Shown: positions 8,335-27,025 of the stretch, one piece after another
Numbering within the stretch: the stretch's first letter is position 1
Layout: every line of letters starts with the position of its first letter
Source of the DNA: Candidatus Nanosynbacter sp. BB002
GTDB taxonomy: Bacteria; Patescibacteriota; Saccharimonadia; Saccharimonadales; Saccharimonadaceae
Reading direction: 5' to 3'
NCBI RefSeq assembly: GCF_037013405.1
Contig: NZ_CP146064.1
Coordinates: 570,001-602,000, forward strand
DNA length: 32,000 bases
The notes under the pieces: model-generated
Seen by the model: only the letters and a program-made list of their open reading frames with translations
Told to the model about the DNA's origin: nothing
Database searches by the model: none
Program-made: the position numbers and the translations under genes

Positions 8335-8361
8335 AAAGCGGCTACATGAGATAGCCGCTTT
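8335..8361. terminator. Bidirectional rho-independent terminator between the convergent ABC and giant-protein genes
   Basis: AAGCGGCTA (8336..8344), loop catgaga, TAGCCGCTT (8352..8360): a perfect 9-bp stem. It is flanked by an A-run upstream and T-rich sequence downstream, so it can serve both strands. Confidence 0.75.
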
Positions 8362-8384: not shown

Positions 8385-11300
8385 TTAGCGTCGGCGTTTG
8401 ATGATTATCCAGGCGCCAGTAGCAACGACCGCGATGGAACCGAGAGTGATTACGATGGCGTTACTACCCGTGTCAGCTAGTGCATTTGATGCTTTCTTCG
8501 CAATCTTAGCAACTGGGTTGTTGCCGCCACTATTGGCATTTTGGTTACCATTCTGAGTAGCGTCCTCTTCTTCGTAAATACCAACTGGGTCGATGATAGT
8601 GCCGTTTGCTATACCGTCACCGTCACCAAAGCCGCCGTCAGTCAAATCATAAGCAATAGTGGTGTATTTGCCATCTGGCGTATTACCAAAGGTAACTCGG
8701 CTGGTGATGTCTTGGTATACTCGACCATTCATTATCTTACCAATTGTCAGACGGTTCGTGTTAGCATAGCGACGACTTAATGTTAAGGTTACGCGAGCTG
8801 TAAAGCCAACCGCAGGAGCTTGGTTGTTACAGTTAATCGTGAAGTCCACTCCTTCGCGAAGCACACGGTTATTGTAGCGATCCGGCGTTGAAGCTGTCTG
8901 TGCTGTCGCCAAGTTGTAACAAGAGTTTCCAGATGTCTCTAATGTCAAAGAACGGTGATATGGCTGTGCAACAGTCATCTTGTTCCGTGGAGCCTGAGGT
9001 CCCGGGATGACAATTGCATTCAACCGATTTTCCAGTGCAGTTCTCTTAGCGGTATCCTGTACGTTTGCCACCAAAGCTCTTGCGGCATTCACTGCAGCTT
9101 GAGTTTTGCTACTTTCAGCCTGAGCAACTGCTTGTTCAGCGGCTGTTTGGGCGTCTGCTTCCTTCTTCTTGGCGTTAGTTACTGCCGTGTTGAGGTCGTT
9201 GGCTGCTTTCTGGATGGCAGTAGCAGCTGGGTTTGGTTGCTTCTCTACTTCTTTGGCTTTGGCGAGAGCTTGCTTGACGGTAGCGTCATTGGTAATGTAG
9301 GCCGGTTCTTTCTCGGCGTTGGCGATGGCGGTGCGGAGGGCAGACAGGTCAGGACGGAGGGCGTCAAGTTTTGCTTGCAGAGCTGCTTTGGCAGCGTTGA
9401 GCTCGGCAACAGAAGCACCGGCGTTGGCAGCAACCTGCTCTGCTTGGGTGACTTGTGCTGCTACGGCGTCCTTGGTTTCTTGGGACATGCCGGCAGTGGT
9501 TGCTGGGTCTTTGGCCTTGGTTATCAGGGCGGAGAGAGCGTTGCGAGCAGCGGTGACGTTAGCGGTTACCTGGTTGAGGCGATCCTGGAAGGCTTGTTTC
9601 TTCGTTGGGTCTTGGACGGCAGCTACCTTGGCGTTGGCGCTGGTAACATCGTCTGGATCCTGGTTGTGTTCAGCCTGAGCAACTGCTTGTTCAGCGGCTG
9701 TTTGGGCGTCTGCTTCCTTCTTCTTGGCGTTAGTTACTGCCGTGTTGAGGTCGTTGGCTGCTTTCTGGATGGCAGTAGCAGCTGGGTTTGGTTGCTTCTC
9801 TACTTCTTTGGCTTTGGCGAGAGCTTGCTTGACGGTAGCGTCATTGGTAATGTAGGCCGGTTCTTTCTCGGCGTTGGCGATGGCGGTGCGGAGGGCAGAC
9901 AGGTCAGGACGGAGGGCGTCAAGTTTTGCTTGCAGAGCTGCTTTGGCAGCGTTGAGCTCGGCAACAGAAGCACCGGCGTTGGCAGCAACCTGCTCTGCTT
10001 GGGTGACTTGTGCTGCTACGGCGTCCTTGGTTTCTTGGGACATGCCGGCAGTGGTTGCTGGGTCTTTGGCCTTGGTTATCAGGGCGGAGAGAGCGTTGCG
10101 AGCAGCGGTGACGTTAGCGGTTACCTGGTTGAGGCGATCCTGGAAGGCTTGTTTCTTCGTTGGGTCTTGGACGGCAGCTACCTTGGCGTTGGCGCTGGTA
10201 ACATCGTCTGGATCCTGGTTGTGTTCAGCCTGAGCAACTGCTTGTTCAGCGGCTGTTTGGGCGTCTGCTTCCTTCTTCTTGGCGTTAGTTACTGCCGTGT
10301 TGAGGTCGTTGGCTGCTTTCTGGATGGCAGTAGCAGCTGGGTTTGGTTGCTTCTCTACTTCTTTGGCTTTGGCGAGAGCTTGCTTGACGGTAGCGTCATT
10401 GGTAATGTAGGCCGGTTCTTTCTCGGCGTTGGCGATGGCGGTGCGGAGGGCAGACAGGTCAGGACGGAGGGCGTCAAGTTTTGCTTGCAGAGCTGCTTTG
10501 GCAGCGTTGAGCTCGGCAACAGAAGCACCGGCGTTGGCAGCAACCTGCTCTGCTTGGGTGACTTGTGCTGCTACGGCGTCCTTGGTTTCTTGGGACATGC
10601 CGGCAGTGGTTGCTGGGTCTTTGGCCTTGGTTATCAGGGCGGAGAGAGCGTTGCGAGCAGCGGTGACGTTAGCGGTTACCTGGTTGAGGCGATCCTGGAA
10701 GGCTTGTTTCTTCGTTGGGTCTTGGACGGCAGCTACCTTGGCGTTGGCGCTGGTAACATCGTCTGGATCCTGGTTGTGTTCAGCCTGAGCAACTGCTTGT
10801 TCAGCGGCTGTTTGGGCGTCTGCTTCCTTCTTCTTGGCGTTAGTTACTGCCGTGTTGAGGTCGTTGGCTGCTTTCTGGATGGCAGTAGCAGCTGGGTTTG
10901 GTTGCTTCTCTACTTCTTTGGCTTTGGCGAGAGCTTGCTTGACGGTAGCGTCATTGGTAATGTAGGCCGGTTCTTTCTCGGCGTTGGCGATGGCGGTGCG
11001 GAGGGCAGACAGGTCAGGACGGAGGGCGTCAAGTTTTGCTTGCAGAGCTGCTTTGGCAGCGTTGAGCTCGGCAACAGAAGCACCGGCGTTGGCAGCAACC
11101 TGCTCTGCTTGGGTGACTTGTGCTGCTACGGCGTCCTTGGTTTCTTGGGACATGCCGGCAGTGGTTGCTGGGTCTTTGGCCTTGGTTATCAGGGCGGAGA
11201 GAGCGTTGCGAGCAGCGGTGACGTTAGCGGTTACCTGGTTGAGGCGATCCTGGAAGGCTTGTTTCTTCGTTGGGTCTTGGACGGCAGCTACCTTGGCGTT

Positions 11301-14300
11301 GGCGCTGGTAACATCGTCTGGATCCTGGTTGTGTTCAGCCTGAGCAACTGCTTGTTCAGCGGCTGTTTGGGCGTCTGCTTCCTTCTTCTTGGCGTTAGTT
11401 ACTGCCGTGTTGAGGTCGTTGGCTGCTTTCTGGATGGCAGTAGCAGCTGGGTTTGGTTGCTTCTCTACTTCTTTGGCTTTGGCGAGAGCTTGCTTGACGG
11501 TAGCGTCATTGGTAATGTAGGCCGGTTCTTTCTCGGCGTTGGCGATGGCGGTGCGGAGGGCAGACAGGTCAGATTTTGGCAGTGTTGCAGTCACGTGTAG
11601 TGTTCCAGAGAAAGCAAACGGCTTACCATTGATAGTTATCTGCTTGTTCCAGTTGGCCTGCAACGCATGCGGTTGACCGTCATATACTGGTGCCGCCACT
11701 TTTAATTTACCAGCTGCTTCATTGACCAAAGTGGCCGTATTCTCAATGGCAATTGGCGCGCCAGCTGCATCCTTCAAAGGCGAGCTGAACACTTCAGACT
11801 CAGTAGTCATACTACCCTGCTGGTTTTCTAGCTTCAAAGAGGTAAGGTGGTTCAAACCCGCGAGAGGCTGTGCATTCATGATCGTACTGTAGTCTAACCG
11901 CAGTTCAGTAAGTTGAGTCATTCGTCCAATTGCAGCAATCTCATCCTCGCTCAGCTGCCCCCCAGTCAAGCGCAAAGAGGTCAGAGCCGGTGCACCAACA
12001 AGAGATTGAGCATTGACAACTTTAGTCTTTCGGCCATAGTCATAGAAAGAGATTTTCTTTAGCGAGTTTTTACTACCTGCAAATGTTGATAGGTCTAACG
12101 TCTGATTGGTACCGCTCATCGAGACTTGCTCGAGCTTGTTCAGAGACGACAAAGGACTATAGTTCGTAACAACATTTTCCGACAAGTTCACACTACGCAA
12201 CTCAGACAAGCCAGCCAGCGGTTGAATATCAGCAACCTTGTTGCCTGACAGCTGTAATGCGCGCAATTTAGTTAGGCCAGAGAGCGGCTGTAAATTGGTA
12301 ATTGCGTGATTGCCGAGTGATAGCTCAGTGACATTTTTAGCGTACTCCAGACCAGTCAAATCCTTAATCCTCTGGTCTTCCGTGATATTGCCAGTATTAT
12401 CGACATACATGCGATCAATGGTTAGCATTTCTTGAGCAGTAATCGCTTGAGCATCACTACGGGTTTTCCCTGAGATTTCAGCTAACCTCTTGTTCAACAA
12501 CTGGCGCAACCTGGCATCAGGGATGTTAACGCCCTGCGCTGCCGGAGGCTGTGGAGGTGTCGGAGAATTGGTTGAATCCATATAAGCATTTACCAAAGCA
12601 CCTCGGTTTACCGCCACACCAGGCCTTACGTGTTGGCCGCTTGGGTCAATTGCTGATGCAACCTCAGCTGACAATGGCTTACCTGAACCAATCGCCGGAC
12701 TGCCTGCCTTCAAGTTGTAGTTACTCTTACGGTAGTCGGTGTTCTGTTCAGCTTCTTTGATGAAGTATGGGTTGTTTGCGCGTGTACCAAACAGGTCGAA
12801 CGAGTGGGTGTCGCGACCATCAATTGACGACCTTACGCGGCTATCTTTAGCGATGTCTTTCACATTAGCAAACAAAATATCAAGGCGGTTCGGCACATCC
12901 GCTAAGTCCCAGGTCATGATCGTGCCTTCATTTTGCAAGCTACTGCGGTAGTAGGCGTTGTAGTCAAAGCCCTTGAACATGTCATTTGTATAGGTGCCTG
13001 GACCAGTGTGGTTTGGGCCACCAGTGCTCCTAACAGGGTAGGACCACAGTGGCGCGCCAGTGTCACCAGAGATGACTGCACGAGATGAGATGATGTTATT
13101 GTACATCTCTAGACCAGTCAAGTTCCAGCTCAGACCCTTGCCAGCAGACCACGACTCGAGCGATTTACAAATTTGTGGATTATTACGATCTCGCTCATTA
13201 CAACCGTCAGTACGAGCATCCTCATTCAGCATGATAGGTCGGTTGGTTCGAGAGATAGTGTTATTGTATACTTTGGAGTTCGAACTACTCGATACGCCAA
13301 TACCCGCACCCGAGCCCTCAATAATGTTTGATGCGATGATTGTGCCATCTGAAACCTCATCAAAGATCGCTGTTGTCGTGTTGATGAAGAAGTTGTTGAC
13401 AATTTTTGCTTTGATGCAGCCTTCATCACACCAGACACCCGCTGTACCATTGCGCACATAATAGTCGTTGCCAGTTGAAGCAGGATTCTTTGAGTTATCA
13501 ACCACATTACCTCGGAACGTAAAGTTCTCAATGTGCGTCACTTTTATCTCAGAAACAGTACACCACGCCAAACAGACTGAACCATTGGTCAGATAATTTG
13601 CTGCGTTGTTCTCTGTAAAGATGTTATTTTCAAATGTTGTATTGTGCGCACGGTTAGCTCCTGCACCATTACCACCATTGCCGATAAATTTGTTATTAAC
13701 GATGCGCGCACCTTGTGCATCAGTATTGAAACCGACTGAGGAGCTTTGCGTAAAGATAGAGTCTTGGACGACTGAGCCACGACCATTTACCACGATCATA
13801 CTGGTCCCAACCTGATCTTCGGCCAAGTCACGATCCCAAGACCAACTCTGTACTGGTGAGTACTGTGCAACATTGATAGCTTTCATCGTGAAATTAGAGC
13901 CATCATCAGCCTGACGACCACCAACAGAGAAAGCGCGTGCTCGGTTGGTAATCTCTGTAGTACCGCTAGATGGGTCAGAGCCAACATAATATGTCAAATC
14001 ATCTTCTGTGCCAACGTTAAAGCCTGCTCGATTATTTGTTGGATCTTTCAAAGTAGTTGGGTTTTTGTCTTCAACGTAAAACTTTCCAGGGCCAACCTTG
14101 TTTTTTGCATCGACTTGTTCCAGTGGTTGATCGTCGATAAACATCTGCTCTGGGTAAGCAGCCATACCTTCTTTGGATGGGTTGGGGTTGACCGTACAAA
14201 CACGACAGAAATTACGGAATTTACCCGTAGTCTTCCACATGTTGCCTTCTTTAGTCCATCGATCTGCCGATACAATATCGCTACCCTTCATCCAGACTTC

Positions 14301-14669
14301 AGCATGAGGGGCAGCCTGGAAGGTAATATTTTTCTTCGTGACAAAGAAATGCGGCTCTCGGTAAGCGCCGCTCTTAGCTACAACCGTTCCTCCATCAGAA
14401 ACAGCCTGTAAGCCTCGCCTAAAGGTCGCGAACGGTCGCGCTTCGGTACCATTCCCAGAATTGTCATTACCATCTGGCGAAATCCATGCCACATTGGTTG
14501 TCGGCACTGGATAGTTGGTATCCATCGCTTTATATTTTTTGTGGACACTAGCCGCTTTTGCCATAAACGGACTTGTTAGAACCAACGCGAAAACCATCAC
14601 AACCGCAGCTGCTGGTATCGCTAGTTTGGCGACACGTTGATTCCTTCTTGATATACGAAGACGTACCAT
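8385..14669 (-). CDS. Giant (2094 aa) secreted, cell-wall-anchored surface protein: signal peptide, right-handed beta-helix, LRR, helical tandem-repeat stalk, C-terminal beta domain, LAXTG sorting signal
   Basis: A single uninterrupted ORF. The N-terminus MVRLRISRRNQRVAKLAIPAAAVVMVFALVLTSPFMAKA|AS is Sec-type. See the sub-features for domains. SD GGAGAGGGAG lies upstream. Confidence 0.9.
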   Translation of the reverse strand: MVRLRISRRNQRVAKLAIPAAAVVMVFALVLTSPFMAKAASVHKKYKAMDTNYPVPTTNVAWISPDGNDNSGNGTEARPFATFRRGLQAVSDGGTVVAKSGAYREPHFFVTKKNITFQAAPHAEVWMKGSDIVSADRWTKEGNMWKTTGKFRNFCRVCTVNPNPSKEGMAAYPEQMFIDDQPLEQVDAKNKVGPGKFYVEDKNPTTLKDPTNNRAGFNVGTEDDLTYYVGSDPSSGTTEITNRARAFSVGGRQADDGSNFTMKAINVAQYSPVQSWSWDRDLAEDQVGTSMIVVNGRGSVVQDSIFTQSSSVGFNTDAQGARIVNNKFIGNGGNGAGANRAHNTTFENNIFTENNAANYLTNGSVCLAWCTVSEIKVTHIENFTFRGNVVDNSKNPASTGNDYYVRNGTAGVWCDEGCIKAKIVNNFFINTTTAIFDEVSDGTIIASNIIEGSGAGIGVSSSSNSKVYNNTISRTNRPIMLNEDARTDGCNERDRNNPQICKSLESWSAGKGLSWNLTGLEMYNNIISSRAVISGDTGAPLWSYPVRSTGGPNHTGPGTYTNDMFKGFDYNAYYRSSLQNEGTIMTWDLADVPNRLDILFANVKDIAKDSRVRSSIDGRDTHSFDLFGTRANNPYFIKEAEQNTDYRKSNYNLKAGSPAIGSGKPLSAEVASAIDPSGQHVRPGVAVNRGALVNAYMDSTNSPTPPQPPAAQGVNIPDARLRQLLNKRLAEISGKTRSDAQAITAQEMLTIDRMYVDNTGNITEDQRIKDLTGLEYAKNVTELSLGNHAITNLQPLSGLTKLRALQLSGNKVADIQPLAGLSELRSVNLSENVVTNYSPLSSLNKLEQVSMSGTNQTLDLSTFAGSKNSLKKISFYDYGRKTKVVNAQSLVGAPALTSLRLTGGQLSEDEIAAIGRMTQLTELRLDYSTIMNAQPLAGLNHLTSLKLENQQGSMTTESEVFSSPLKDAAGAPIAIENTATLVNEAAGKLKVAAPVYDGQPHALQANWNKQITINGKPFAFSGTLHVTATLPKSDLSALRTAIANAEKEPAYITNDATVKQALAKAKEVEKQPNPAATAIQKAANDLNTAVTNAKKKEADAQTAAEQAVAQAEHNQDPDDVTSANAKVAAVQDPTKKQAFQDRLNQVTANVTAARNALSALITKAKDPATTAGMSQETKDAVAAQVTQAEQVAANAGASVAELNAAKAALQAKLDALRPDLSALRTAIANAEKEPAYITNDATVKQALAKAKEVEKQPNPAATAIQKAANDLNTAVTNAKKKEADAQTAAEQAVAQAEHNQDPDDVTSANAKVAAVQDPTKKQAFQDRLNQVTANVTAARNALSALITKAKDPATTAGMSQETKDAVAAQVTQAEQVAANAGASVAELNAAKAALQAKLDALRPDLSALRTAIANAEKEPAYITNDATVKQALAKAKEVEKQPNPAATAIQKAANDLNTAVTNAKKKEADAQTAAEQAVAQAEHNQDPDDVTSANAKVAAVQDPTKKQAFQDRLNQVTANVTAARNALSALITKAKDPATTAGMSQETKDAVAAQVTQAEQVAANAGASVAELNAAKAALQAKLDALRPDLSALRTAIANAEKEPAYITNDATVKQALAKAKEVEKQPNPAATAIQKAANDLNTAVTNAKKKEADAQTAAEQAVAQAEHNQDPDDVTSANAKVAAVQDPTKKQAFQDRLNQVTANVTAARNALSALITKAKDPATTAGMSQETKDAVAAQVTQAEQVAANAGASVAELNAAKAALQAKLDALRPDLSALRTAIANAEKEPAYITNDATVKQALAKAKEVEKQPNPAATAIQKAANDLNTAVTNAKKKEADAQTAAEQAVAQAESSKTQAAVNAARALVANVQDTAKRTALENRLNAIVIPGPQAPRNKMTVAQPYHRSLTLETSGNSCYNLATAQTASTPDRYNNRVLREGVDFTINCNNQAPAVGFTARVTLTLSRRYANTNRLTIGKIMNGRVYQDITSRVTFGNTPDGKYTTIAYDLTDGGFGDGDGIANGTIIDPVGIYEEEDATQNGNQNANSGGNNPVAKIAKKASNALADTGSNAIVITLGSIAVVATGAWIIIKRRR
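8388..8480 (-). other. Sortase sorting signal, LAXTG type (LADTG + hydrophobic span + KRRR tail)
   Basis: The C-terminal 31 aa are LADTG-SNAIVITLGSIAVVATGAWIII-KRRR. LADTG is encoded at 8480..8466 (cta gct gac acg ggt). Confidence 0.8.
9114..11572 (-). repeat. Tandem coding repeat, period 555 bp (185 aa), 4.43 copies, apparently 100% identical at nucleotide level
   Basis: Identity starts at 9114 (ttcagcc) and ends at 11572. Repeat landmarks fall at 9116, 9671, 10226 and 10781. All translated frames in the ORF track repeat letter-for-letter (62-aa and 119-aa shadow ORFs x4, plus the 881-aa shadow ORF). The unit is DLSALRTAIANAEKEPAYITNDATVKQ...AALQAKLDALRP. Confidence 0.95.
11815..12533 (-). 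other. Leucine-rich repeat (internalin-like, ~22-residue LRR) region of the giant protein; boundaries approximate
   Basis: Repeating LxxLxxLxLxxNxIxxIxPL units: LTGLEYAKNVTELSLGNHAITNLQPLSGLTKLRALQLSGNKVADIQPLAGLSELRSVNLSENVVTNYSPLSSLNKLEQVSMSG... Confidence 0.8.
12570..14492 (-). other. Right-handed parallel beta-helix (pectate-lyase-fold / PbH1-repeat) region of the giant protein; boundaries approximate
   Basis: Typical entry motif ISPDGNDNSGNGTEARPFATFRRGLQAVSDGGTVVAKSGAYRE. Further on there are Asn/Gly-rich coils (IVNNKFIGNGGNGAGANRAHNTTFENNIFTENNAANY, KVYNNTISRTN, EMYNNIIS). Confidence 0.7.
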
Positions 14670-14720
14670 CCCTATTTTTCTCCCTCTCCTCAGTTTTGTG
14701 TATTAAAACTACCTGCCACC

Positions 14721-14750
14721 AGTGTAGCATGAGCGATTTCATCATGTCAA
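14721..14750 (-). promoter_or_regulatory. Candidate promoter of the giant surface-protein gene: TTGACA-18 nt-TGcTACACT
   Basis: On the minus strand the -35 TTGACA is at 14750..14745 and the extended -10 TGCTACACT is at 14729..14721. A leader of about 45 nt follows, carrying GGAGAGGGAG before ATG 14669. Confidence 0.5.
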
Positions 14751-14788: not shown

Positions 14789-15463
14789 ATGATGCACGCT
14801 TTCGTAGACTTTATTATTCACTTTGGTATTATTGCCGTTTTATTTGTTATATTCGCCGAGTCAGGCCTATTGTTTGGGTTTATTTTCCCTGGCGATAGCC
14901 TGCTATTCACTGCTGGCTATATGGTACAACAACACATTTTGCCAATCGACATTTCGATATTCGTGCTTTTACTTATCATCGCGGCCATTGCCGGAGATTC
15001 AGTTGGTTACACCTTTGGCCACAAGGTGGGCCGAAAACTGTTTGAGCGGAAAAACTCACGCTTGTTCAAACGTAAATATCTCATTCAAGCTGAAAAATTT
15101 TATGAAAAACATGGCGCCATCACAGTCATCTTGGCACGATTTGTGCCCATTGTCCGCACGTTTGCCCCAATCGTAGCCGGCGCAAGCAAAATGCATTATC
15201 GAACCTTCTTGCTCTTCAACGTCATTGGTGGCATTTTATGGGCTTCGCTATTCACTTACCTGGGATTCTTTGCTGGCAAGGCACTGACTGAAGCTGGCAT
15301 TAACGTTGAGGTCGCTGCCCTGATTATCATTTTCCTGTCAGTCCTGCCAATGATCATTCACGCGCTCAAGCAAGAATCCACCAAAGCAGCCCTCAAAAAA
15401 CAGTTATCTGTCCTGTTTTCAAAAGACAAACAGCCAAAGTCGGCTGCTAAAAAGCGCAAGTAA
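14789..15463 (+). CDS. DedA-family (VTT/SNARE-associated domain) membrane protein
   Basis: 224 aa. AESGLLFGFIFPGDSLLFTAGY and ARFVPIVRTFAPIVAG are characteristic DedA motifs. Lys-rich C-terminal tail. Confidence 0.88.
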   Translation: MMHAFVDFIIHFGIIAVLFVIFAESGLLFGFIFPGDSLLFTAGYMVQQHILPIDISIFVLLLIIAAIAGDSVGYTFGHKVGRKLFERKNSRLFKRKYLIQAEKFYEKHGAITVILARFVPIVRTFAPIVAGASKMHYRTFLLFNVIGGILWASLFTYLGFFAGKALTEAGINVEVAALIIIFLSVLPMIIHALKQESTKAALKKQLSVLFSKDKQPKSAAKKRK

Positions 15464-20224: not shown

Positions 20225-21130
20225 TTAATCGTTGTTAATTGCCGCTATTGCTTCTCGAGCAAGAAACCGTTTAGAGCGCTCAGGGCCAGGTATGAGATCT
20301 TTTTCTCCGTGCGACAAATTGTACACATCCAGCTTCAATGCCTTTGCAGCATCCGAGCGCGTATCATCTCTCCATTCCCTAATGATAGGTGAACGAAGAG
20401 TCTCGTCCACTGATGCCTGAGGGTCAACCGACGCTTCTATAAGTACCTCTTCTGGCACATGAATCCTACCGTCTTCCCAGCGCAATTTCAGATGGTTTAA
20501 TGCAATCAACTGTTCAACGTTCTCCCCAAAATAATCAGATACAGCAGGAGTGCGCAGCTCAGCACCCGCCAGGGCCAAATGTACATTGTACGCCCCGCCC
20601 AGTTTATGATAAATTTTCTTCAATTCTTCCGCGCTCAACGCAGGTTGTTCCTCTGGTCTCACATAGTCGGCCTTCGTTGCGTCAAGCCAGTCAGCATAAT
20701 ATCCAGCCGCCTTTTCAGAACCAAACTGTTTCTTTTTAAGGCCAGCCAATACATACTGTGTCAATTTGCCAACTGGCCCATCAAGCAGCGATTCAACATT
20801 TCCCTTACGAACTTCTACCGCTAGGCGCCCGACGTATTCTCTAGGCTGATTTTTCAAATAATGATCACCACTGAGCGGCTCCTCACCCCGCAACGCTCTG
20901 AGAATATCGTTCTGTGCGTCCTTAAAAGCCACATGCCTCCGGACGTTGGGACCAAAATGATGACGACGTACCGCAGGAGCAAACGTAAGCTCCAACGAGG
21001 TCAACCCGACAGCCCCAACCGCCCCTACGGTGGCCTCTCGATTTGATTTATATGCAATTTTGTTTTCCAGTCGCCCGATCTCCCAATAGCTCGGTACGGT
21101 CATCTGCCGCTCTGTGTTACTACTACCCAT
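20225..21130 (-). CDS. Hypothetical protein (301 aa), co-transcribed with sbcB (5-nt spacer)
   Basis: Clear SD GGAGG (21139..21135) 4 nt before ATG 21130. There is only a faint local resemblance to the GR-x-Y-x-P-x-E-x-L segment of squalene/phytoene synthases (EDGRIHVPEEVL). That is not enough to assign a family. Confidence 0.6.
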   Translation of the reverse strand: MGSSNTERQMTVPSYWEIGRLENKIAYKSNREATVGAVGAVGLTSLELTFAPAVRRHHFGPNVRRHVAFKDAQNDILRALRGEEPLSGDHYLKNQPREYVGRLAVEVRKGNVESLLDGPVGKLTQYVLAGLKKKQFGSEKAAGYYADWLDATKADYVRPEEQPALSAEELKKIYHKLGGAYNVHLALAGAELRTPAVSDYFGENVEQLIALNHLKLRWEDGRIHVPEEVLIEASVDPQASVDETLRSPIIREWRDDTRSDAAKALKLDVYNLSHGEKDLIPGPERSKRFLAREAIAAINND

Positions 21131-22573: not shown

Positions 22574-23692
22574 TTAATGAATATAATTATAAGCGCCTGG
22601 GTTGGTCAACTCACGATGAGTGATGACATTATAGCCAGCGAAGTTCATGTCACTCACAAACACCCGACCGTTCTCAACCCTGTCAACGATTCCAACGTGT
22701 CCGTAGTAGCCACCTGAGCTCTGGAAGATAGCACCCGGAGCTGGCGTCTTGTTGACCGTAAAACCAGCAGCACGTGCACTCGCAGCCCAAGTATTGGCGT
22801 TACCCCAGAAGCTACCGATTGGACGACCAAGTGCCAAGCGTCGCTCATATGAGTACCATGTACAGTTACCTGGTGCGTATCGGTTACCAACAGAAGCAGC
22901 GACGTTACCGTAACTTACGCCACTATAACCAGAATGACTATTACTGCTTCGTCCACCGCGCGGTGCGACATACCCTGGACGCTCATTTTCTGGCAGCTCA
23001 CCACCAGGCAACACGATGCGCGTATTTACCGTTGGCTGTGCCACGCGATCTAGTGAGTTATACAATAAGACTCGCTCAGCATCAACCTTATACTTTGAAG
23101 CGATAGCTGCGATGGTATCACCTTCCTTAACAGTGTAAACCACACCATCAACTTGTGGTACCAACAGTGTCCTACCCGGTTCAACAGCGTCAGAGGTCAT
23201 ATTGTTTGCCCAACGCAGCGTTTGAGTTGAAATCTTGAACTTGGCAGCAATTTTAGCTAAATCATCACCCGGCTTAGTAACATATTCGGTAATACCACGC
23301 TGAGACGACGTTTCCGGTTGGATAAGCTGCGGCTTAGAGATAACCTCTGCGTCAGTTTGAGCTAACTGCTTCTGGATTTGCAAAGAAGTAGTTGCTTCGC
23401 GCAAGTCACCAGCAGATGGTAAATCAGTAGCCTCTGCTAAACTAGCGACAGCGTCAGCCACTTCCAATTGATCGACTGACATTTTTTCCTTACTTGTGGT
23501 TGTAGACTTTGGATTTGGGTTGGCAACCTGAGACTCTTGGGCGGAAACCTCCACTCCAGTAACCCCGGTCCCCTGATGATAATTATTAATAGTCAAAAAT
23601 GAAACAATAAGTGCAAATAGGGCTACATAGATAGAAGCTGACCGTACTCGCGCTAGACGACTCTGTCGAGTCTTTGATGTGTTACGAATAAT
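22574..23692 (-). CDS. Secreted/membrane-anchored peptidoglycan hydrolase: signal anchor + 2 x LysM + CHAP amidase/peptidase domain
   Basis: LysM1 is YVTKPGDDLAKIAAKFKISTQTLRWANNM and LysM2 is YTVKEGDTIAAIASKYKVDAERVLLYNSL. The CHAP domain has Cys in GNCTWYSYERR and His in YYGHVGIV. The canonical-start ORF is 22574..23596 (TTG). I extend to ATT 23692 because the frame stays open and encodes the missing signal anchor (see finding). Confidence 0.85.
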   Translation of the reverse strand: MIRNTSKTRQSRLARVRSASIYVALFALIVSFLTINNYHQGTGVTGVEVSAQESQVANPNPKSTTTSKEKMSVDQLEVADAVASLAEATDLPSAGDLREATTSLQIQKQLAQTDAEVISKPQLIQPETSSQRGITEYVTKPGDDLAKIAAKFKISTQTLRWANNMTSDAVEPGRTLLVPQVDGVVYTVKEGDTIAAIASKYKVDAERVLLYNSLDRVAQPTVNTRIVLPGGELPENERPGYVAPRGGRSSNSHSGYSGVSYGNVAASVGNRYAPGNCTWYSYERRLALGRPIGSFWGNANTWAASARAAGFTVNKTPAPGAIFQSSGGYYGHVGIVDRVENGRVFVSDMNFAGYNVITHRELTNPGAYNYIH

Positions 23693-23889
23693 CGTTCTCC
23701 TGCATTGACGTTACCGCCAGTGCTACTACCATAATGAGTCTTTCTTCTCGCAATAGAACAGGATACGTTGTCGACCTAATAATTAGTGATATTTCATAAA
23801 CGATTAGTTTTGTGCTGTATCCGTACGACCGTTTTGGTAGGCTCAACCTCAGACAGCCAAAACAAAGTTAACTGTTCATGGTTAAGCTG
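23693..23889 (-). promoter_or_regulatory. Long (~200 nt) 5' leader of the LysM-CHAP gene; candidate cis-regulatory RNA
   Basis: This is the distance between the consensus promoter at 23896..23924 and the SD/start region. It contains a 7-bp hairpin (GTTTTGG 23863..23857 with CCAAAAC 23837..23831) and a long-range GGATAC/GTATCC pair (23822..23817 with 23766..23761). I recognise no riboswitch consensus. Confidence 0.35.
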
Positions 23890-25013: not shown

Positions 25014-25410
25014 AGTGTACCTCCAAATAATCCTGCAAAATGATGCTGGCAGCCTCAGCGTCAATCTCACCTTTATCTTTAACGCGACCTAACCGACGTT
25101 CAGCTTCAACGCTACTGAGCGACTCATCTTGATAAACCAGCTCAGCATCAAGCTCAATCTCAGAAAAACCATCAACAAACTGCTCTACAAAAGCTGTCTG
25201 TTTGGTTGGTTCGCCCGACTGATTGCGCGGATAGCCAACGACAATGATGTCAATATCATGACGTAATACTGTTTCCGCCAACTTGGTAAAAATCTCATCA
25301 TTATTCTCCAGCCAACCAAACGGCACAGCGATTCTGACTGAGGTATCAGCCATAGCCAAACCAATTCGTCGTTCACCGACGTCTAGTGCCAGCAAATTCT
25401 TACCGGCCAT
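25000..25410 (-). CDS. ruvX: Holliday-junction resolvase-like / pre-16S rRNA nuclease RuvX (YqgF)
   Basis: 136 aa. LLALDVGERRIGLAMAD, IIVVGYPRNQSGEPT, DESLSSVEAE. It overlaps the mltG start by 14 nt and the upstream gene's end by 11 nt. Confidence 0.92.
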   Translation of the reverse strand: MAGKNLLALDVGERRIGLAMADTSVRIAVPFGWLENNDEIFTKLAETVLRHDIDIIVVGYPRNQSGEPTKQTAFVEQFVDGFSEIELDAELVYQDESLSSVEAERRLGRVKDKGEIDAEAASIILQDYLEVHYADS

Positions 25411-27025
25411 TATCCAATTTAAATTCTATACTAATATGTTTGTCATTATTTGGCACAGTGCGTACCCAAAACGGTGAGAATTTCGTATCAACATCTTGCA
25501 CGCCTTCAATTGATTCAAGGCTAGACTGGACATCACCATAGTTCCGACCTTTTACCTGCTCCTTGACTTTGTGCTCATCAATCTCTGGGCCAATCTTTGC
25601 ATTTGCTGTTAATCGAACTTGCACGGCATTGTTGCGCTCACTGTACTGCGCAAATTTTACCTCATTAGACCCATCATTATAGATCTTCTGGTTCTTCTTG
25701 CTACCAATCTCTTTCTTGAGCGTGTCCTCCAAGAACTGCTTCATATCAGAGCGATCAATACCCTGCATACTGGCTGTCACCGTTGTTTTCAACTGAACTG
25801 TACCACTGGCTTCATGGTCAACCGCCACTGAAGGCGTAGGGTTTGAGCGAGCCTCTTGGTAGCTTTCATTGATGACGATGCTTGAAGATGGGAATAGTGC
25901 TTTGACTGCTGATTGCAGTGAAGCGTCTTTTTGGGCGTCAAGCTTAACTTTAGCTTTGGCAACATCATCAGCCGACACCACAGTCACTTCCCGACTCGAG
26001 CCGCCACTCATTGCGGTGCCCGCCGCCGAAAAGCCGCTCACATTTGAAGAGTAGCTTCGTGACGATAGATTGTATTCACTACCAACCTGAGTTGCTTGCA
26101 CCTTGACGGTTGCCACCGATTGGATGACACCGCCAGGACCAATTGAGGTGCCCGACAAGCTGGCTGGCTCTGTGCTGACAAACGTATAATCGCCCGACGA
26201 GAAGGACGTTCCAGCCGGAATTGTTAGCGTCAAGCTTGATACCGATGTTCGAACAAGGTGCATCGTACCACTTGCTTTTTCACCAACCTTTTTCTTGCCC
26301 GTAGGAGTAAAATCAACAGAGATTTCTTTCTTTTGTTCTTGACGCAATGACTTGATGGTATTGTTAGCAGCATCAACTTTGCCATCTTGCTTTAATGTGA
26401 CTGATTTATCAACGGTAGAGGTGGTCGTTTTGGCTGTGATCACCACTGTAGCATGCGGCGCAAACCAAATCGCCCAAACCATGAACAGAACAAATAGAAC
26501 GATGCCGCCGCCAATCAAGACTAATTTTTTGCGGAAAACATTAAAATCTGGGACTTTTGGCTTACCTTTGCCTGCTGGCTTAGCAGGTTTTGCTGGCTTT
26601 GTTGGCTTTTCATCCTCGGCTATAGCTGCATCGATAGCATCATCAGCCTTATTTCGTGCTTTTGGCGTCACCTTATCAGCCAATTCACCGACCGGTATCT
26701 CACTACCGTCAATCACATCATCGCCATCATCAATATCGATGGCTGGAATTTCCGCAATCTCTGGGCGAGACTGCAATGTCTTGGCCACTGGGATGCGGGC
26801 TGCGGCTGCCAAACCACTGAGCGCCTGGTCACTGGTAATCAACACGATTCGCTTCTCGGCATTCTCCGCCGCACGATTTAACAATCTCATATTGACCGCG
26901 CTCTGCAATATACCAACCCGTTTAGGAGGCACCAATGCAACGATACGCGCCTTTGAATCTTTTATCTTGCTGACGATGTTGGTGATATCGTCTTCAACAT
27001 CGATATAGATAACGTCTTTGTTCAT
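25400..27025 (-). CDS. Bitopic membrane protein of unknown function (541 aa): conserved-looking ~95-aa cytoplasmic N-domain, acidic then Lys/Pro-rich linker, one TM, ~340-aa Ser/Thr/Val-rich ectodomain
   Basis: N-domain: MNKDVIYIDVEDDITNIVSKIKDSKARIVALVPPKRVGILQSAVNMRLLNRAAENAEKRIVLITSDQ. Linker: KPTKPAKPAKPAGKGKPKVP. TM: LVLIGGGIVLFVLFMVWAIWFAP. The ectodomain segment ASGTMHLVRTSVSSLTLTIPAGTSFSSGDYTFVSTE...VKVQATQVGSEYNL recalls regions sometimes labelled baseplate-J-like; this rests on memory only and is low confidence. The ATG follows the ftsA-like TAA directly. Confidence 0.75.
   Translation of the reverse strand: MNKDVIYIDVEDDITNIVSKIKDSKARIVALVPPKRVGILQSAVNMRLLNRAAENAEKRIVLITSDQALSGLAAAARIPVAKTLQSRPEIAEIPAIDIDDGDDVIDGSEIPVGELADKVTPKARNKADDAIDAAIAEDEKPTKPAKPAKPAGKGKPKVPDFNVFRKKLVLIGGGIVLFVLFMVWAIWFAPHATVVITAKTTTSTVDKSVTLKQDGKVDAANNTIKSLRQEQKKEISVDFTPTGKKKVGEKASGTMHLVRTSVSSLTLTIPAGTSFSSGDYTFVSTEPASLSGTSIGPGGVIQSVATVKVQATQVGSEYNLSSRSYSSNVSGFSAAGTAMSGGSSREVTVVSADDVAKAKVKLDAQKDASLQSAVKALFPSSSIVINESYQEARSNPTPSVAVDHEASGTVQLKTTVTASMQGIDRSDMKQFLEDTLKKEIGSKKNQKIYNDGSNEVKFAQYSERNNAVQVRLTANAKIGPEIDEHKVKEQVKGRNYGDVQSSLESIEGVQDVDTKFSPFWVRTVPNNDKHISIEFKLDNGR

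What the first reader, a model, noticed from the sequence alone, without database searches (positions are those of the whole stretch)
8385..14669. Giant LAXTG-anchored beta-helix + LRR + stalk surface protein: candidate adhesin / host-contact protein
One 6.3-kb ORF takes about 20% of the window. It combines five parts:
- a Sec signal peptide
- a pectate-lyase-fold beta-helix of about 640 aa, a fold typical of polysaccharide-binding or polysaccharide-cleaving proteins
- an internalin-type LRR block with a following beta segment (..VYDGQPHALQANWNKQITINGKPFAFSGTLHVTA..)
- an Ala/Gln/Lys-rich helical stalk of about 820 aa
- a Cys-containing C-terminal beta domain ending in DGGFGDGDGIANGTIIDPVG, a metal-binding-like acidic Gly loop, just before the sorting signal

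The layout places a possible glycan-active head and a protein-binding LRR at the tip of a long spacer covalently attached to the wall. If the genome is a reduced or epibiotic lineage, as other genes hint, this is the kind of protein expected to mediate partner or host recognition. I know of no characterised protein with this exact domain order.
Basis: partly seen in the sequence, partly recalled or inferred. Interest (0 to 1): 0.72.

Follow-up and report, generated by a model that had tools for sequence, protein, structure and literature searches.

The report
Wall-anchored sugar-cutting protein of an epibiont
This gene from a tiny mouth bacterium that lives attached to other bacteria encodes a long wall-anchored surface protein whose tip looks like a working sugar-cutting enzyme next to a binding module; it is a good but not essential candidate for contact with partner surfaces, and its stated length is an assembly estimate.

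Summary
The ORF is real: 8385..14669 on the minus strand, 2094 aa.

The window is from Candidatus Nanosynbacter sp. BB002, an oral Saccharibacterium (TM7) grown on Actinomyces. RefSeq calls this protein only a 'choice-of-anchor U domain-containing protein'.

- **Head.** It is not just a 'pectate-lyase fold'. Its closest solved relative is the GH120 beta-xylosidase XylC. XylC's Lys358, nucleophile Asp382 and acid/base Glu405 align with K376, D415 and E438, which are near-invariant in 142 relatives.
- **Binding module.** The LRR block plus beta segment is a complete internalin domain.
- **Stalk.** It is 4.43 tandem 185-aa units. They are 100% identical in DNA, but the genome was assembled from 2x150 Illumina reads only. 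The copy number, and so the 6.3 kb length, is inferred rather than read.
- **C-terminal domain.** It is the known choice-of-anchor U domain, followed by LADTG.

Relatives are common in oral Saccharibacteria and under strong purifying selection. The syntenic orthologue in Southlakia epibionticum, which lacks the LRR, is non-essential in published Tn-seq.

Verdict: an anchored glycosidase/adhesin, a new variant of a known kind. Its target is unknown.

The parts
8385..14669 (-). Whole coding sequence, 2094 aa. Identical to WP_338520590.1 of Candidatus Nanosynbacter sp. BB002.
14721..14750 (-). Promoter-like site: TTGACA, 18 nt, TACACT, with TG before the second hexamer. An AGGAGAGGGAG Shine-Dalgarno-like run lies at 14680-14690.
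   Evidence: Consensus match only.
14553..14669 (-). Signal peptide, aa 1-39, with A-K-A before the predicted cut.
   Evidence: Read from the sequence. No predictor was run.
12573..14552 (-). Beta-helix head, aa 40-699: a GH120-like glycoside hydrolase domain. Predicted catalytic residues are K376 (13542-13544), D415 (13425-13427) and E438 (13356-13358).
12534..12572 (-). Pro/Thr-rich linker, aa 700-712.
11841..12533 (-). Internalin-type N-cap plus about nine leucine-rich repeats of roughly 22 aa, aa 713-943.
11580..11840 (-). Ig-like inter-repeat beta-sandwich that completes the internalin domain, aa 944-1030.
9114..11570 (-). Stalk: four full 185-aa (555-nt) units (11016-11570, 10461-11015, 9906-10460, 9351-9905) plus a 79-aa partial unit (9114-9350). 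All are identical in DNA. The units are helical and of FIVAR/Ebh type. The copy number is an assembly inference.
8988..9113 (-). Diverged helical hairpin that ends the last unit, aa 1853-1894.
8577..8987 (-). C-terminal beta domain with C1917 and C1947 and the DGGFGDGDG..DPVG motif. The choice-of-anchor U match covers aa 1950-2031.
8388..8480 (-). Sorting signal: LADTG (8466-8480), hydrophobic span, KRRR tail.
8335..8361 (-). Terminator-like hairpin (11-bp stem followed by a T run) 24 nt after the stop codon. The gene looks monocistronic.

Best explanation
This is a sortase-anchored surface enzyme-adhesin of an oral Saccharibacterium.

**How the protein is built and placed (inferred unless marked shown).**
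- After Sec export, the LADTG signal is cut and the protein is linked to the cell wall, probably by a class E sortase.
- The choice-of-anchor U domain sits next to the wall.
- A rod of FIVAR/Ebh-like helical units projects the two working modules some tens of nanometres outward. This is a rough estimate by analogy with the Ebh rod.
- The number of units sets the reach. It is nominally four and a half here, but that figure is not directly sequenced.

**The tip (fold and conserved residues are shown; activity is inferred).**
- The tip carries a GH120-like beta-helix.
- I predict it is an active retaining glycosidase, with D415 as nucleophile, E438 as acid/base and K376 positioning the nucleophile.
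- An internalin domain next to it binds a ligand.

**Proposed function (inferred).**
- The pair binds and trims a glycan on a neighbouring surface.
- The most likely target is the cell-wall polysaccharide or matrix of its Actinomyces host or of the plaque biofilm.
- The protein helps close contact or sugar harvest, but it is an accessory factor and not required for growth on the host in the laboratory.
- The substrate is probably not xylo-oligosaccharide, because XylC's sugar-binding residues are not kept.
For: **Anchoring.**
- Signal peptide, LADTG, membrane span and charged tail are present.
- A class E sortase exists in the related S. epibionticum.

**Head.**
- With a profile of 56 relatives, XylC (3VST, GH120) matches at E 3.3e-33 in one alignment that covers XylC residues 3-507.
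- Foldseek ranks XylC first (E 4.2e-17, TM 0.50), followed by GH141 and GH136 glycosidases.
- XylC's K358, D382 and E405 (roles from PMC3507262) align with K376, D415 and E438. The Asp-to-Glu spacing is 23 residues in both proteins, in W-x-D and E-V-S motifs.
- In 142 diverse relatives K376 is kept in 140, D415 in 141, E438 in 141, W413 in 142 and R486 in 135.

**Internalin domain.** TM 0.85-0.87 to InlH and InlB, including the Ig-like part.

**Stalk.**
- The model is all-helical.
- Seven of 10 orthologous units hit Pfam FIVAR, best E 2.6e-11.
- The best solved-structure match is Emb (E 0.0016).
- ECOD maps the S. epibionticum orthologue to Ebh-type domains.

**The gene is functional.**
- dN/dS is 0.03 for the head, 0.07 for the LRR and 0.05 for the Ig-like part, with dS of 0.2-0.5, across 20 close relatives.
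- The gene has its own promoter-like site and terminator.

**Context from papers.**
- Host cell-wall glycans affect Saccharibacteria binding (PMC11623550).
- Essential envelope proteins of S. epibionticum carry glycan-binding domains (PMC10633639).
Against: **No direct evidence.** There is no biochemical, expression or localisation evidence for this protein.

**Weak link to GH120.**
- Identity to XylC is only 16%.
- XylC residues E353, H360 and W383 of the -1 sugar subsite are not matched, so the substrate is unknown.
- I could not inspect model coordinates, so the geometry of the D415/E438 pair is unchecked.

**Genetics argues against an essential contact role.**
- The syntenic orthologue SEML1_0645 is non-essential, with rising read counts in Tn-seq.
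- Loss of the class E sortase in that species gives a growth advantage.
- That orthologue lacks the LRR, so the test is indirect.

**Other points.**
- About 28 related species carry a 952-aa form with no stalk or anchor, so anchoring is not needed for every function of the head.
- The stalk length is not verified.
Confidence: 0.6

Rival explanations
1. Nutrient-scavenging exoglycosidase. The anchored head mainly releases sugars from salivary, dietary or matrix glycans for the epibiont's own fermentation. It would work like the LPXTG-anchored glycosidases of Streptococcus pneumoniae or Bifidobacterium. The internalin domain and stalk would serve only to position the enzyme.
For: - The orthologue is dispensable for growth on the host in rich medium.
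- The head family is widespread in free-living bacteria: 963 clusters at E <= 1e-30, including Actinomyces, Desulfovibrionaceae and Nonomuraea.
- Secreted 697-aa and 952-aa forms exist.
- Patescibacteria are thought to live on products of their glycoside hydrolases (PMC11665869).
- The characterised GH120 member XylC is exo-acting.
Against: - No sugar transporter or catabolic gene lies next to the gene. The neighbours are an ABC exporter, DedA and UvrA.
- An internalin domain and a long stalk are costly extras for a simple scavenging enzyme.
- This reading overlaps with the best explanation rather than excluding it.
Confidence: 0.25
2. Non-catalytic adhesin. The beta-helix is only a binding scaffold, as in the pneumococcal LPXTG adhesin PfbA, and the protein simply sticks the epibiont to a partner.
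For: - PfbA appears among the fold matches (E 6e-5).
- Beta-helices are common in adhesins.
Against: - The Lys, Asp and Glu that match XylC's catalytic set are kept in 140-141 of 142 relatives from many phyla. That is hard to explain without catalysis.
- PfbA is a far weaker match than the glycosidases (TM 0.24 against 0.50).
- dN/dS of 0.03 makes the head the most constrained part of the protein.
Confidence: 0.08
3. The head is a polysaccharide lyase or epimerase rather than a hydrolase. This would fit the reader's 'pectate-lyase fold' and suggest cleavage or modification of uronic-acid polymers of the biofilm matrix.
For: - Profile matches to AlgE4 mannuronan C5-epimerase (E 3.1e-12) and to the PL6 alginate lyase AlyGC (E 7.8e-7) cover central coils.
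- Pel9A and a rhamnogalacturonan lyase match the N-terminal cap.
Against: - These matches are 20 or more orders of magnitude weaker than the XylC match.
- They are partial, whereas the XylC alignment runs through the whole catalytic core with the hydrolase residues conserved.
Confidence: 0.05
4. The 'giant' size is partly an assembly artefact. The true BB002 protein may have fewer or more stalk units than 4.43, for example the 1539-aa form seen in metagenome assemblies. The perfect identity of the copies may not be biological.
For: - The assembly used Illumina 2x150 reads only, with Unicycler, which sets repeat multiplicity from read depth (PMC5481147).
- The array is 2,459 nt of identical 555-nt units.
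- All 10 complete relatives are 1539 aa, and 9 further contigs stop at or inside the repeat.
- In other lineages the units are only 38-57% identical to each other.
Against: - A multi-copy call implies raised depth over the unit, so more than one full copy is likely.
- L080 also shows near-identical tandem units of a shorter kind, so recent unit duplication does occur in this family.
- The 1539-aa forms are themselves the minimal path through the same repeat graph and are equally unverified.
- This concerns length only, not the identity of the protein.
Confidence: 0.4

Closest known systems
GH120 beta-xylosidase XylC of Thermoanaerobacterium saccharolyticum (PDB 3VST)
   Same: - Right-handed beta-helix catalytic domain. 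It is the best match by sequence profile (E 3.3e-33) and by fold (E 4.2e-17).
- Lys, Asp nucleophile and Glu acid/base sit at aligned positions with the same 23-residue spacing.
   Different: - Only 16% identity.
- XylC is a cytoplasmic, stand-alone tetrameric enzyme.
- Its -1 subsite residues E353, H360 and W383 are not conserved here.
- This head is exported and fused to an internalin domain, a stalk and a wall anchor.
Listeria internalins (InlB, InlH): internalin domain made of N-cap, LRR and Ig-like inter-repeat region
   Same: - Same three-part fold, TM 0.85-0.87, with repeats of about 22 residues.
- Also found in wall-associated surface proteins.
   Different: - About 21-25% identity.
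- Here the domain is internal, placed after an enzyme rather than at the N-terminus.
- Its ligand is unknown and unlikely to be a mammalian receptor.
LPXTG-anchored multidomain glycosidases that double as adhesins (S. pneumoniae BgaA, StrH and NanA; Bifidobacterium AgaBb GH110 and the LnbX GH136 beta-helix enzymes) and EndoS (GH18 plus LRR). The link to these is from my own knowledge, apart from the fold hits.
   Same: - Catalytic head, binding modules and a wall anchor.
- Beta-helix glycosidases of GH110 and GH136 appear among the fold matches.
- The EndoS LRR model scores 26.1 bits, just under its 27.9 cut-off.
   Different: - Different GH family.
- The combination with a complete internalin domain, a FIVAR/Ebh rod, a choice-of-anchor U domain and LAxTG was found only in Saccharibacteria, among the 80 best of 181 matching genome loci.
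Ebh/Emb giant rod adhesins of Staphylococcus and Streptococcus (FIVAR-GA helical repeats)
   Same: - Tandem helical-bundle units that form a spacer.
- Profile match to Emb 6GV8 (E 0.0016).
- FIVAR hits in orthologous units.
- ECOD assigns Ebh-type domains to the S. epibionticum orthologue.
   Different: - The unit is 185 aa with its own layout.
- The window's own unit does not reach the FIVAR model.
- There are far fewer units than in Ebh.
SEML1_0645 of Southlakia epibionticum ML1 (listed as hypothetical protein in Wang et al. 2023, PMC10633639)
   Same: - Same chromosomal position: ABC exporter, the gene, VTT/DedA, UvrA.
- Beta-helix head, helical units, C-terminal domain and LANTG anchor (seen in the matching 1141-aa gene of L079).
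   Different: - No internalin domain.
- Shorter stalk units; 1141 aa in total.
- Experimentally non-essential.

Membership tests
Glycoside hydrolase family 120 (CAZy) | Significant sequence and fold similarity of the catalytic beta-helix to XylC | tested here: met
   - hmmsearch with a 56-sequence profile: E 3.3e-33, 118 bits, XylC residues 3-507.
- Foldseek ranks XylC first, E 4.2e-17, TM 0.50.
- The single window sequence reaches only E 1.3e-7, on the N-terminal cap.
Glycoside hydrolase family 120 (CAZy) | Catalytic nucleophile Asp and acid/base Glu (XylC D382 and E405), plus the Lys that positions the nucleophile (K358) | tested here: met
   - They align to D415, E438 and K376 with the same spacing.
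- They are kept in 141, 141 and 140 of 142 relatives.
- The alignment is by sequence only. The 3-D geometry could not be checked.
Glycoside hydrolase family 120 (CAZy) | XylC -1 subsite residues for xylose (W113, Q289, E353, H360, W383, R450) and beta-xylosidase activity | tested here: inconclusive
   - R486 may correspond to R450 (kept in 135 of 142).
- E353, H360 and W383 have no conserved counterpart.
- Activity cannot be tested with these tools.
Glycoside hydrolase family 120 (CAZy) | Assignment by CAZy's own family model | not testable with these tools
   - No CAZy or dbCAN library was available.
- At 16% identity the head may fall outside GH120 proper.
Internalin domain (Listeria type) | Helical N-cap, a run of roughly 22-residue LRRs and a fused Ig-like inter-repeat domain | tested here: met
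   - The model (pLDDT 95) shows the cap helix, strands every 22-26 residues and a beta-sandwich at model residues 232-317.
- InlH 1H6U: TM 0.85, rmsd 3.4 A. InlB variant 4AW4: TM 0.86-0.87.
- LRR_4 and LRR_8 are above their cut-offs.
NEAT-domain internalin-like proteins (NCBIfam NF033190) | Whole-protein score above the curated cut-off | tested here: not met
   69 bits against a cut-off of 1275. Only the LRR part matches.
Sortase substrates with an LPXTG-type sorting signal | N-terminal signal peptide; C-terminal L-x-x-T-G motif, hydrophobic span and basic tail | tested here: met
   - LADTG at aa 2064-2068, then 21 hydrophobic residues and KRRR.
- TIGR01167 scores 17.6 bits against 15.9 on the C-terminal fragment.
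- Orthologues have LADTG, LAATG, LSETG, LSDTG or LANTG.
Sortase substrates with an LPXTG-type sorting signal | A cognate sortase in the same genome. Class E sortases prefer LAxTG (my own knowledge). | not testable with these tools
   - No sortase lies in the 32-kb window.
- The related S. epibionticum has a class E sortase, SEML1_0711, and a second, essential sortase, SEML1_0327.
Choice-of-anchor U domain (NCBIfam NF041766) | Score above the curated cut-off, and a position just before a C-terminal sorting signal | tested here: met
   - 46 bits against 32, at aa 1950-2031, which is 32 residues before LADTG.
- RefSeq names the protein after this domain.
FIVAR / Ebh-type helical repeat | Match to Pfam FIVAR (PF07554), or to solved Ebh/Emb modules | tested here: inconclusive
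   - The window's own unit has no FIVAR hit at E <= 1.
- Seven of 10 orthologous units do hit, best E 2.6e-11.
- The unit profile matches Emb 6GV8 at E 0.0016.
- The model is all-helical.
Pectate/polysaccharide lyases (PL1, PL6, PL9) | Similarity across the catalytic coils, with the lyase catalytic base and calcium ligands | tested here: not met
   - Pel9A matches only the N-terminal cap (E 1e-3 to 7e-5).
- PL6 lyases match about 100 residues at E around 1e-6.
- The fold class is shared, but family membership is not supported.

The most novel reading that the evidence does not exclude
The head belongs to an uncharacterised glycosidase family related to GH120. Oral Saccharibacteria would use it much as a phage uses a tailspike. 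Held on a stalk whose length changes by gain and loss of repeat units, it recognises and cuts a specific cell-wall polysaccharide of the Actinomyces host, and so shapes host range or the step from loose to intimate attachment. The gene for the head also moves between epibionts and their hosts. A high-GC Propionibacterium-like contig carries a lower-GC copy, and Cardiobacterium copies sit in the same clade.
Probability: 0.15. Interest if true: 0.8.

Novelty: new variant of a known kind. Interest (0 to 1): 0.45.

Why it matters
How ultrasmall epibionts recognise and hold on to host bacteria is largely unknown. Type IV pili and a few glycan-binding envelope proteins are the only leads, and host wall glycans are already implicated.

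This protein gives a concrete, testable candidate:
- It is a conserved, strongly constrained, wall-anchored enzyme with named catalytic residues.
- It occurs in a strain that can be cultured with its host.
- It comes from a group where gene knock-outs are now possible.

It also points to a large family of beta-helix proteins, distantly related to GH120, none of whose sampled members carries more than a generic database name. The published Tn-seq result limits expectations: any role in host contact is likely accessory, redundant or only visible in the mouth.

Tried and rejected

- Tandem Repeats Finder found nothing, because the 555-nt period exceeds its 500-nt limit. The repeat finder and a period scan showed the array.
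- Pfam on the window's own stalk unit gave only coiled-coil noise: TBCA_PH, syntaxin, DUF1664. PADLOC LmuB and JetC hits and NCBIfam SMC and Rad50 hits are the same low-complexity effect.
- My first unit alignment (A4) used a circularly shifted copy and was redone as A5.

**Ideas considered and set aside.**
- A phage tailspike origin. Viral beta-helix proteins match (best E 6.6e-12), but less well than XylC, and the gene sits among housekeeping genes.
- Diversifying selection on the LRR as a sign of a host-range determinant. It was not found.
- Copy-number polymorphism between strains (2094 aa against 1539 aa). I dropped it as a claim, because short-read assemblies cannot count identical 555-nt units.
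- The long plus-strand ORF 8955..11600 as a gene. It is an antisense shadow of the repeats.
Full report
**1. The observation**

An uninterrupted ORF runs from 14669 down to 8385 on the minus strand: ATG start, 2094 codons. Upstream lie a promoter-like site (TTGACA, 18 nt, TACACT, at 14750-14721) and a purine-rich ribosome-binding stretch. An 11-bp hairpin with a T run follows 24 nt after the stop codon, so the gene looks monocistronic.

The neighbours are housekeeping genes:
- UvrC, a HAD hydrolase, a UDG, a CAAX protease and an ABC exporter on one side.
- A VTT/DedA protein, UvrA, an exonuclease and Obg on the other side.
- Further on: a LysM-CHAP hydrolase, YceG, FtsA, AlaRS, S16 and MnmA.

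**2. Where the window comes from, and a caveat on length**

The protein is identical over all 2094 residues to WP_338520590.1. RefSeq names it 'choice-of-anchor U domain-containing protein' of Candidatus Nanosynbacter sp. BB002, on an 804,253-bp contig. That is the published genome size of this strain. BB002 is an oral Saccharibacterium isolated on Actinomyces sp. HMT-171 F0337 (PMC11737083). A lysM-TM7 RNA at 23697-23842 independently points to TM7.

The same paper states that the genome was assembled from Illumina 2x150 reads only, with Unicycler 0.4.8. This matters for the stalk:
- The stalk is a tandem array of 4.43 copies of a 555-nt unit, with no mismatch inside the array over about 1,900 compared positions.
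- No read or read pair spans 2,459 nt of identical units.
- Unicycler sets the multiplicity of repeat segments from read depth (PMC5481147). How it then writes out a tandem loop is my own recollection.
- The count of four full units is therefore an estimate. The perfect identity of the copies is what one gets when a single graph segment is written out several times.

Related short-read assemblies show the same limit. Of 20 loci at 94-98% identity:
- 10 give a complete 1539-aa protein with 1.43 units, which is the shortest path through the repeat.
- 9 contigs stop at or inside the repeat, most of them about 50 nt into a unit.
- 1 ends earlier, at a stop inside the LRR region.

Any copy number keeps the frame. 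The protein's identity is safe, but the figures '6.3 kb' and 'about 820-aa stalk' are provisional.

**3. The parts**

*Signal peptide (aa 1-39).* It has a basic n-region, a hydrophobic core and A-K-A before the cut. This is read from the sequence; no predictor was run.

*Head (aa 40-699).*
- Pfam gives only generic Beta_helix and NosD hits.
- The model, built on 13 sequences, has pLDDT 84 and pTM 0.88.
- Its best solved match is the GH120 beta-xylosidase XylC, 3VST (Foldseek E 4.2e-17, TM 0.50). GH141 BT1002 and GH136 lacto-N-biosidases come next. Lyases, epimerases, tailspikes and the adhesin PfbA are much weaker.
- A profile of 13 relatives hits XylC at E 1.6e-18. A profile of 56 diverse relatives hits it at E 3.3e-33, in one alignment over XylC residues 3-507.
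- The XylC paper assigns Asp382 as nucleophile, Glu405 as acid/base and Lys358 as the partner of Asp382 (PMC3507262).
- In the alignments these fall on D415 (motif W-C-D), E438 (motif E-V-S) and K376. The Asp-to-Glu spacing is 23 residues in both proteins.
- In my alignment of 142 relatives, D415 and E438 are each kept in 141, K376 in 140, W413 in 142 and R486 in 135.
- XylC's sugar-binding E353, H360 and W383 are not matched, so I would not predict xylosidase activity.

I conclude that the head is a probable active retaining glycosidase. It is homologous to GH120 but distant from it (16% identity).

*Internalin domain (aa 713-1030).*
- The model of aa 713-1217 has pLDDT 95.
- It shows a cap helix, about nine strands spaced 22-26 residues apart, and a beta-sandwich.
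- It superposes on the complete internalin domains of InlH and InlB with TM 0.85-0.87 and rmsd 2.3-3.4 A.

*Stalk (aa 1034-1894).*
- Each 185-aa unit is predicted as a small three-helix module followed by long helices of 39 and 32 residues and two more helices.
- The window's own unit misses the Pfam FIVAR model, but 7 of 10 orthologous units hit it, best E 2.6e-11.
- The unit profile finds the Emb rod protein 6GV8 at E 0.0016.
- ECOD maps the S. epibionticum orthologue to Ebh-type 'bacterial immunoglobulin/albumin-binding' domains.
- All family members with a stalk end in a partial unit, and the number of full 185-aa units ranges from 0 to 4.
- In other lineages the units within one protein are 38-57% identical. 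L080 has near-identical shorter units.

*C-terminal domain and anchor.*
- The C-terminal domain matches NCBIfam choice_anch_U at 46 bits against a cut-off of 32.
- LADTG, a 21-residue hydrophobic span and KRRR follow.

**4. Relatives, position and selection**

- The head family is large: 25,114 cluster representatives at E <= 0.001 and 963 at E <= 1e-30. The named members I sampled are all labelled generically. They come from Actinomyces, Desulfovibrionaceae, Nonomuraea, Cardiobacterium and Saccharibacteria.
- Among the 80 best of 181 matching genome loci, every copy that carries the internalin domain is in Saccharibacteria.
- Four architectures occur:
  - head only (about 690 aa);
  - head plus internalin domain without stalk or anchor (952 aa, about 28 species);
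  - head plus stalk plus anchor (1020-1141 aa);
  - the full form (1480-2094 aa).
- The position between the ABC exporter and DedA/UvrA is kept in the close relatives L001-L021. It is also kept in L079 and L080, whose gene lacks the internalin domain. The internalin-bearing homologues at 47-51% identity lie elsewhere in their genomes. The internalin module has therefore been gained, lost or swapped.
- Among 20 close relatives dS is 0.2-0.5, while dN/dS is 0.03 (head), 0.07 (LRR) and 0.05 (Ig-like part). The whole N-terminal half is under strong purifying selection. There is no sign of diversifying selection at the domain level.

**5. Evidence from published experiments**

- The Tn-seq table for S. 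epibionticum ML1 lists SEML1_0645 as a 3,426-nt 'hypothetical protein'. It has Beta_helix and NosD hits and Ebh-type domains. It lies between an ABC exporter with L25 on one side and VTT/DedA with UvrA on the other. Its length equals that of the syntenic gene in L079 (1141 aa). I take it to be the positional orthologue.
- SEML1_0645 is called non-essential at P0, P1 and P2. It carries 172, 217 and 203 insertions, and normalised reads rise from 8,683 to 11,499.
- The same table lists a class E sortase, SEML1_0711, as non-essential and then growth-advantage. A second sortase, SEML1_0327, is essential.
- The authors note that several essential envelope proteins carry glycan-binding domains and may target host glycans.
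- Others report that host wall glycans, especially rhamnose-containing ones, affect binding of N. lyticus, and they propose close-range adhesins acting after the pili.
- Hosts remodel wall polysaccharide synthesis when infected.

**6. What it most likely is**

Shown:
- the ORF;
- the domain folds and their order;
- the sorting signal;
- the conserved catalytic-type residues;
- the lineage;
- the strong constraint on the protein.

Inferred:
- covalent wall anchoring, probably by a class E sortase (the LAxTG preference is my own knowledge);
- a rod of a few tens of nanometres, by analogy with Ebh;
- glycosidase activity with D415 and E438;
- ligand binding by the internalin domain;
- a target on a neighbouring surface.

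The Tn-seq result and the free-living relatives mean that sugar harvesting is a serious alternative to host contact. The two roles need not exclude each other, as with pneumococcal anchored glycosidases (my own knowledge). A purely structural adhesin head and a lyase or epimerase head are less likely, given the residue conservation and the ranking of matches.

**7. Comparison and novelty**

- Wall-anchored multidomain glycosidases and internalin-type surface proteins are well known in Gram-positive bacteria. Helical FIVAR/Ebh stalks and choice-of-anchor domains are known too.
- New here are the combination in one chain and its restriction to oral Saccharibacteria. Also new is the assignment of the head to a GH120-related family, with no characterised member that I could find, and with named catalytic residues.
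- The protein is already in RefSeq under a non-committal name. Its orthologue has been screened genetically without comment.
- I rate it a new variant of a known kind, of moderate interest.

Noticed in passing
window 8955-11600 (+), and 9319-9678, 9874-10233, 10429-10788, 10984-11343 (+): An 881-aa ORF and four 119-aa ORFs spaced 555 nt apart lie antisense to the stalk repeats. They are shadows of the Ala/Gln/Lys-rich repeat (GC 57%, strong GC and AT skew), not genes.
   Followed up: partly
window 23697-23842 (-): A lysM-TM7 RNA (Rfam RF03005, 118 bits against a gathering score of 61.5) lies just upstream of a LysM+CHAP peptidoglycan hydrolase gene at 22574-23596 (-). It is a TM7-specific candidate cis-regulator of unknown ligand.
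   Followed up: no
L078 9971-12064 (contig CALHWB010000005.1, 'uncultured Propionibacterium sp.'): A stand-alone 697-aa copy of the beta-helix head (P0013, 56% identical to the window's head) sits in a contig whose flanks are 64-66% GC, while the gene itself is 57% GC. This suggests transfer between oral Actinomycetota, which are the host group of Saccharibacteria, and lower-GC donors. In a rough neighbour-joining tree it falls among the Saccharibacteria copies.
   Followed up: partly
P0079, P0081, P0097 (Cardiobacterium; no locus fetched): Oral Cardiobacterium species carry the same head at about 50% identity, fused to WG beta-repeats instead of the internalin domain and stalk. This is a second sign that the head moves between unrelated mouth bacteria.
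   Followed up: partly
L048-L076 (for example L048 10001-12856): About 28 Saccharibacteria species have a 952-aa form that ends right after the LRR region, with no stalk, C-terminal domain or anchor, and no DGGFGD motif anywhere in the locus. It is presumably a secreted version.
   Followed up: partly
window 14789-15463 (+): The divergently transcribed VTT/DedA neighbour has an orthologue, SEML1_0646, that is essential in S. epibionticum Tn-seq (ES at P1 and P2). That is unusual for a DedA protein.
   Followed up: no
window 13416-13427 (-), aa 414-418: The predicted nucleophile D415 sits in W-C-D-E-G-C. C414 and C418 are kept in 110 and 112 of 142 relatives. Other Cys pairs are 155/158, 366/370, 490/501 and 1917/1947. 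These may be disulfides in an exported protein.
   Followed up: no
window 20225-21130 (-) and 25400-27025 (-): A 301-aa ORF has no family match and is the most variable neighbour (88-100% identity among close relatives, 42% in L079). A 541-aa ORF has a Baseplate_J hit just under the cut-off (20.7 bits against 21.1).
   Followed up: no
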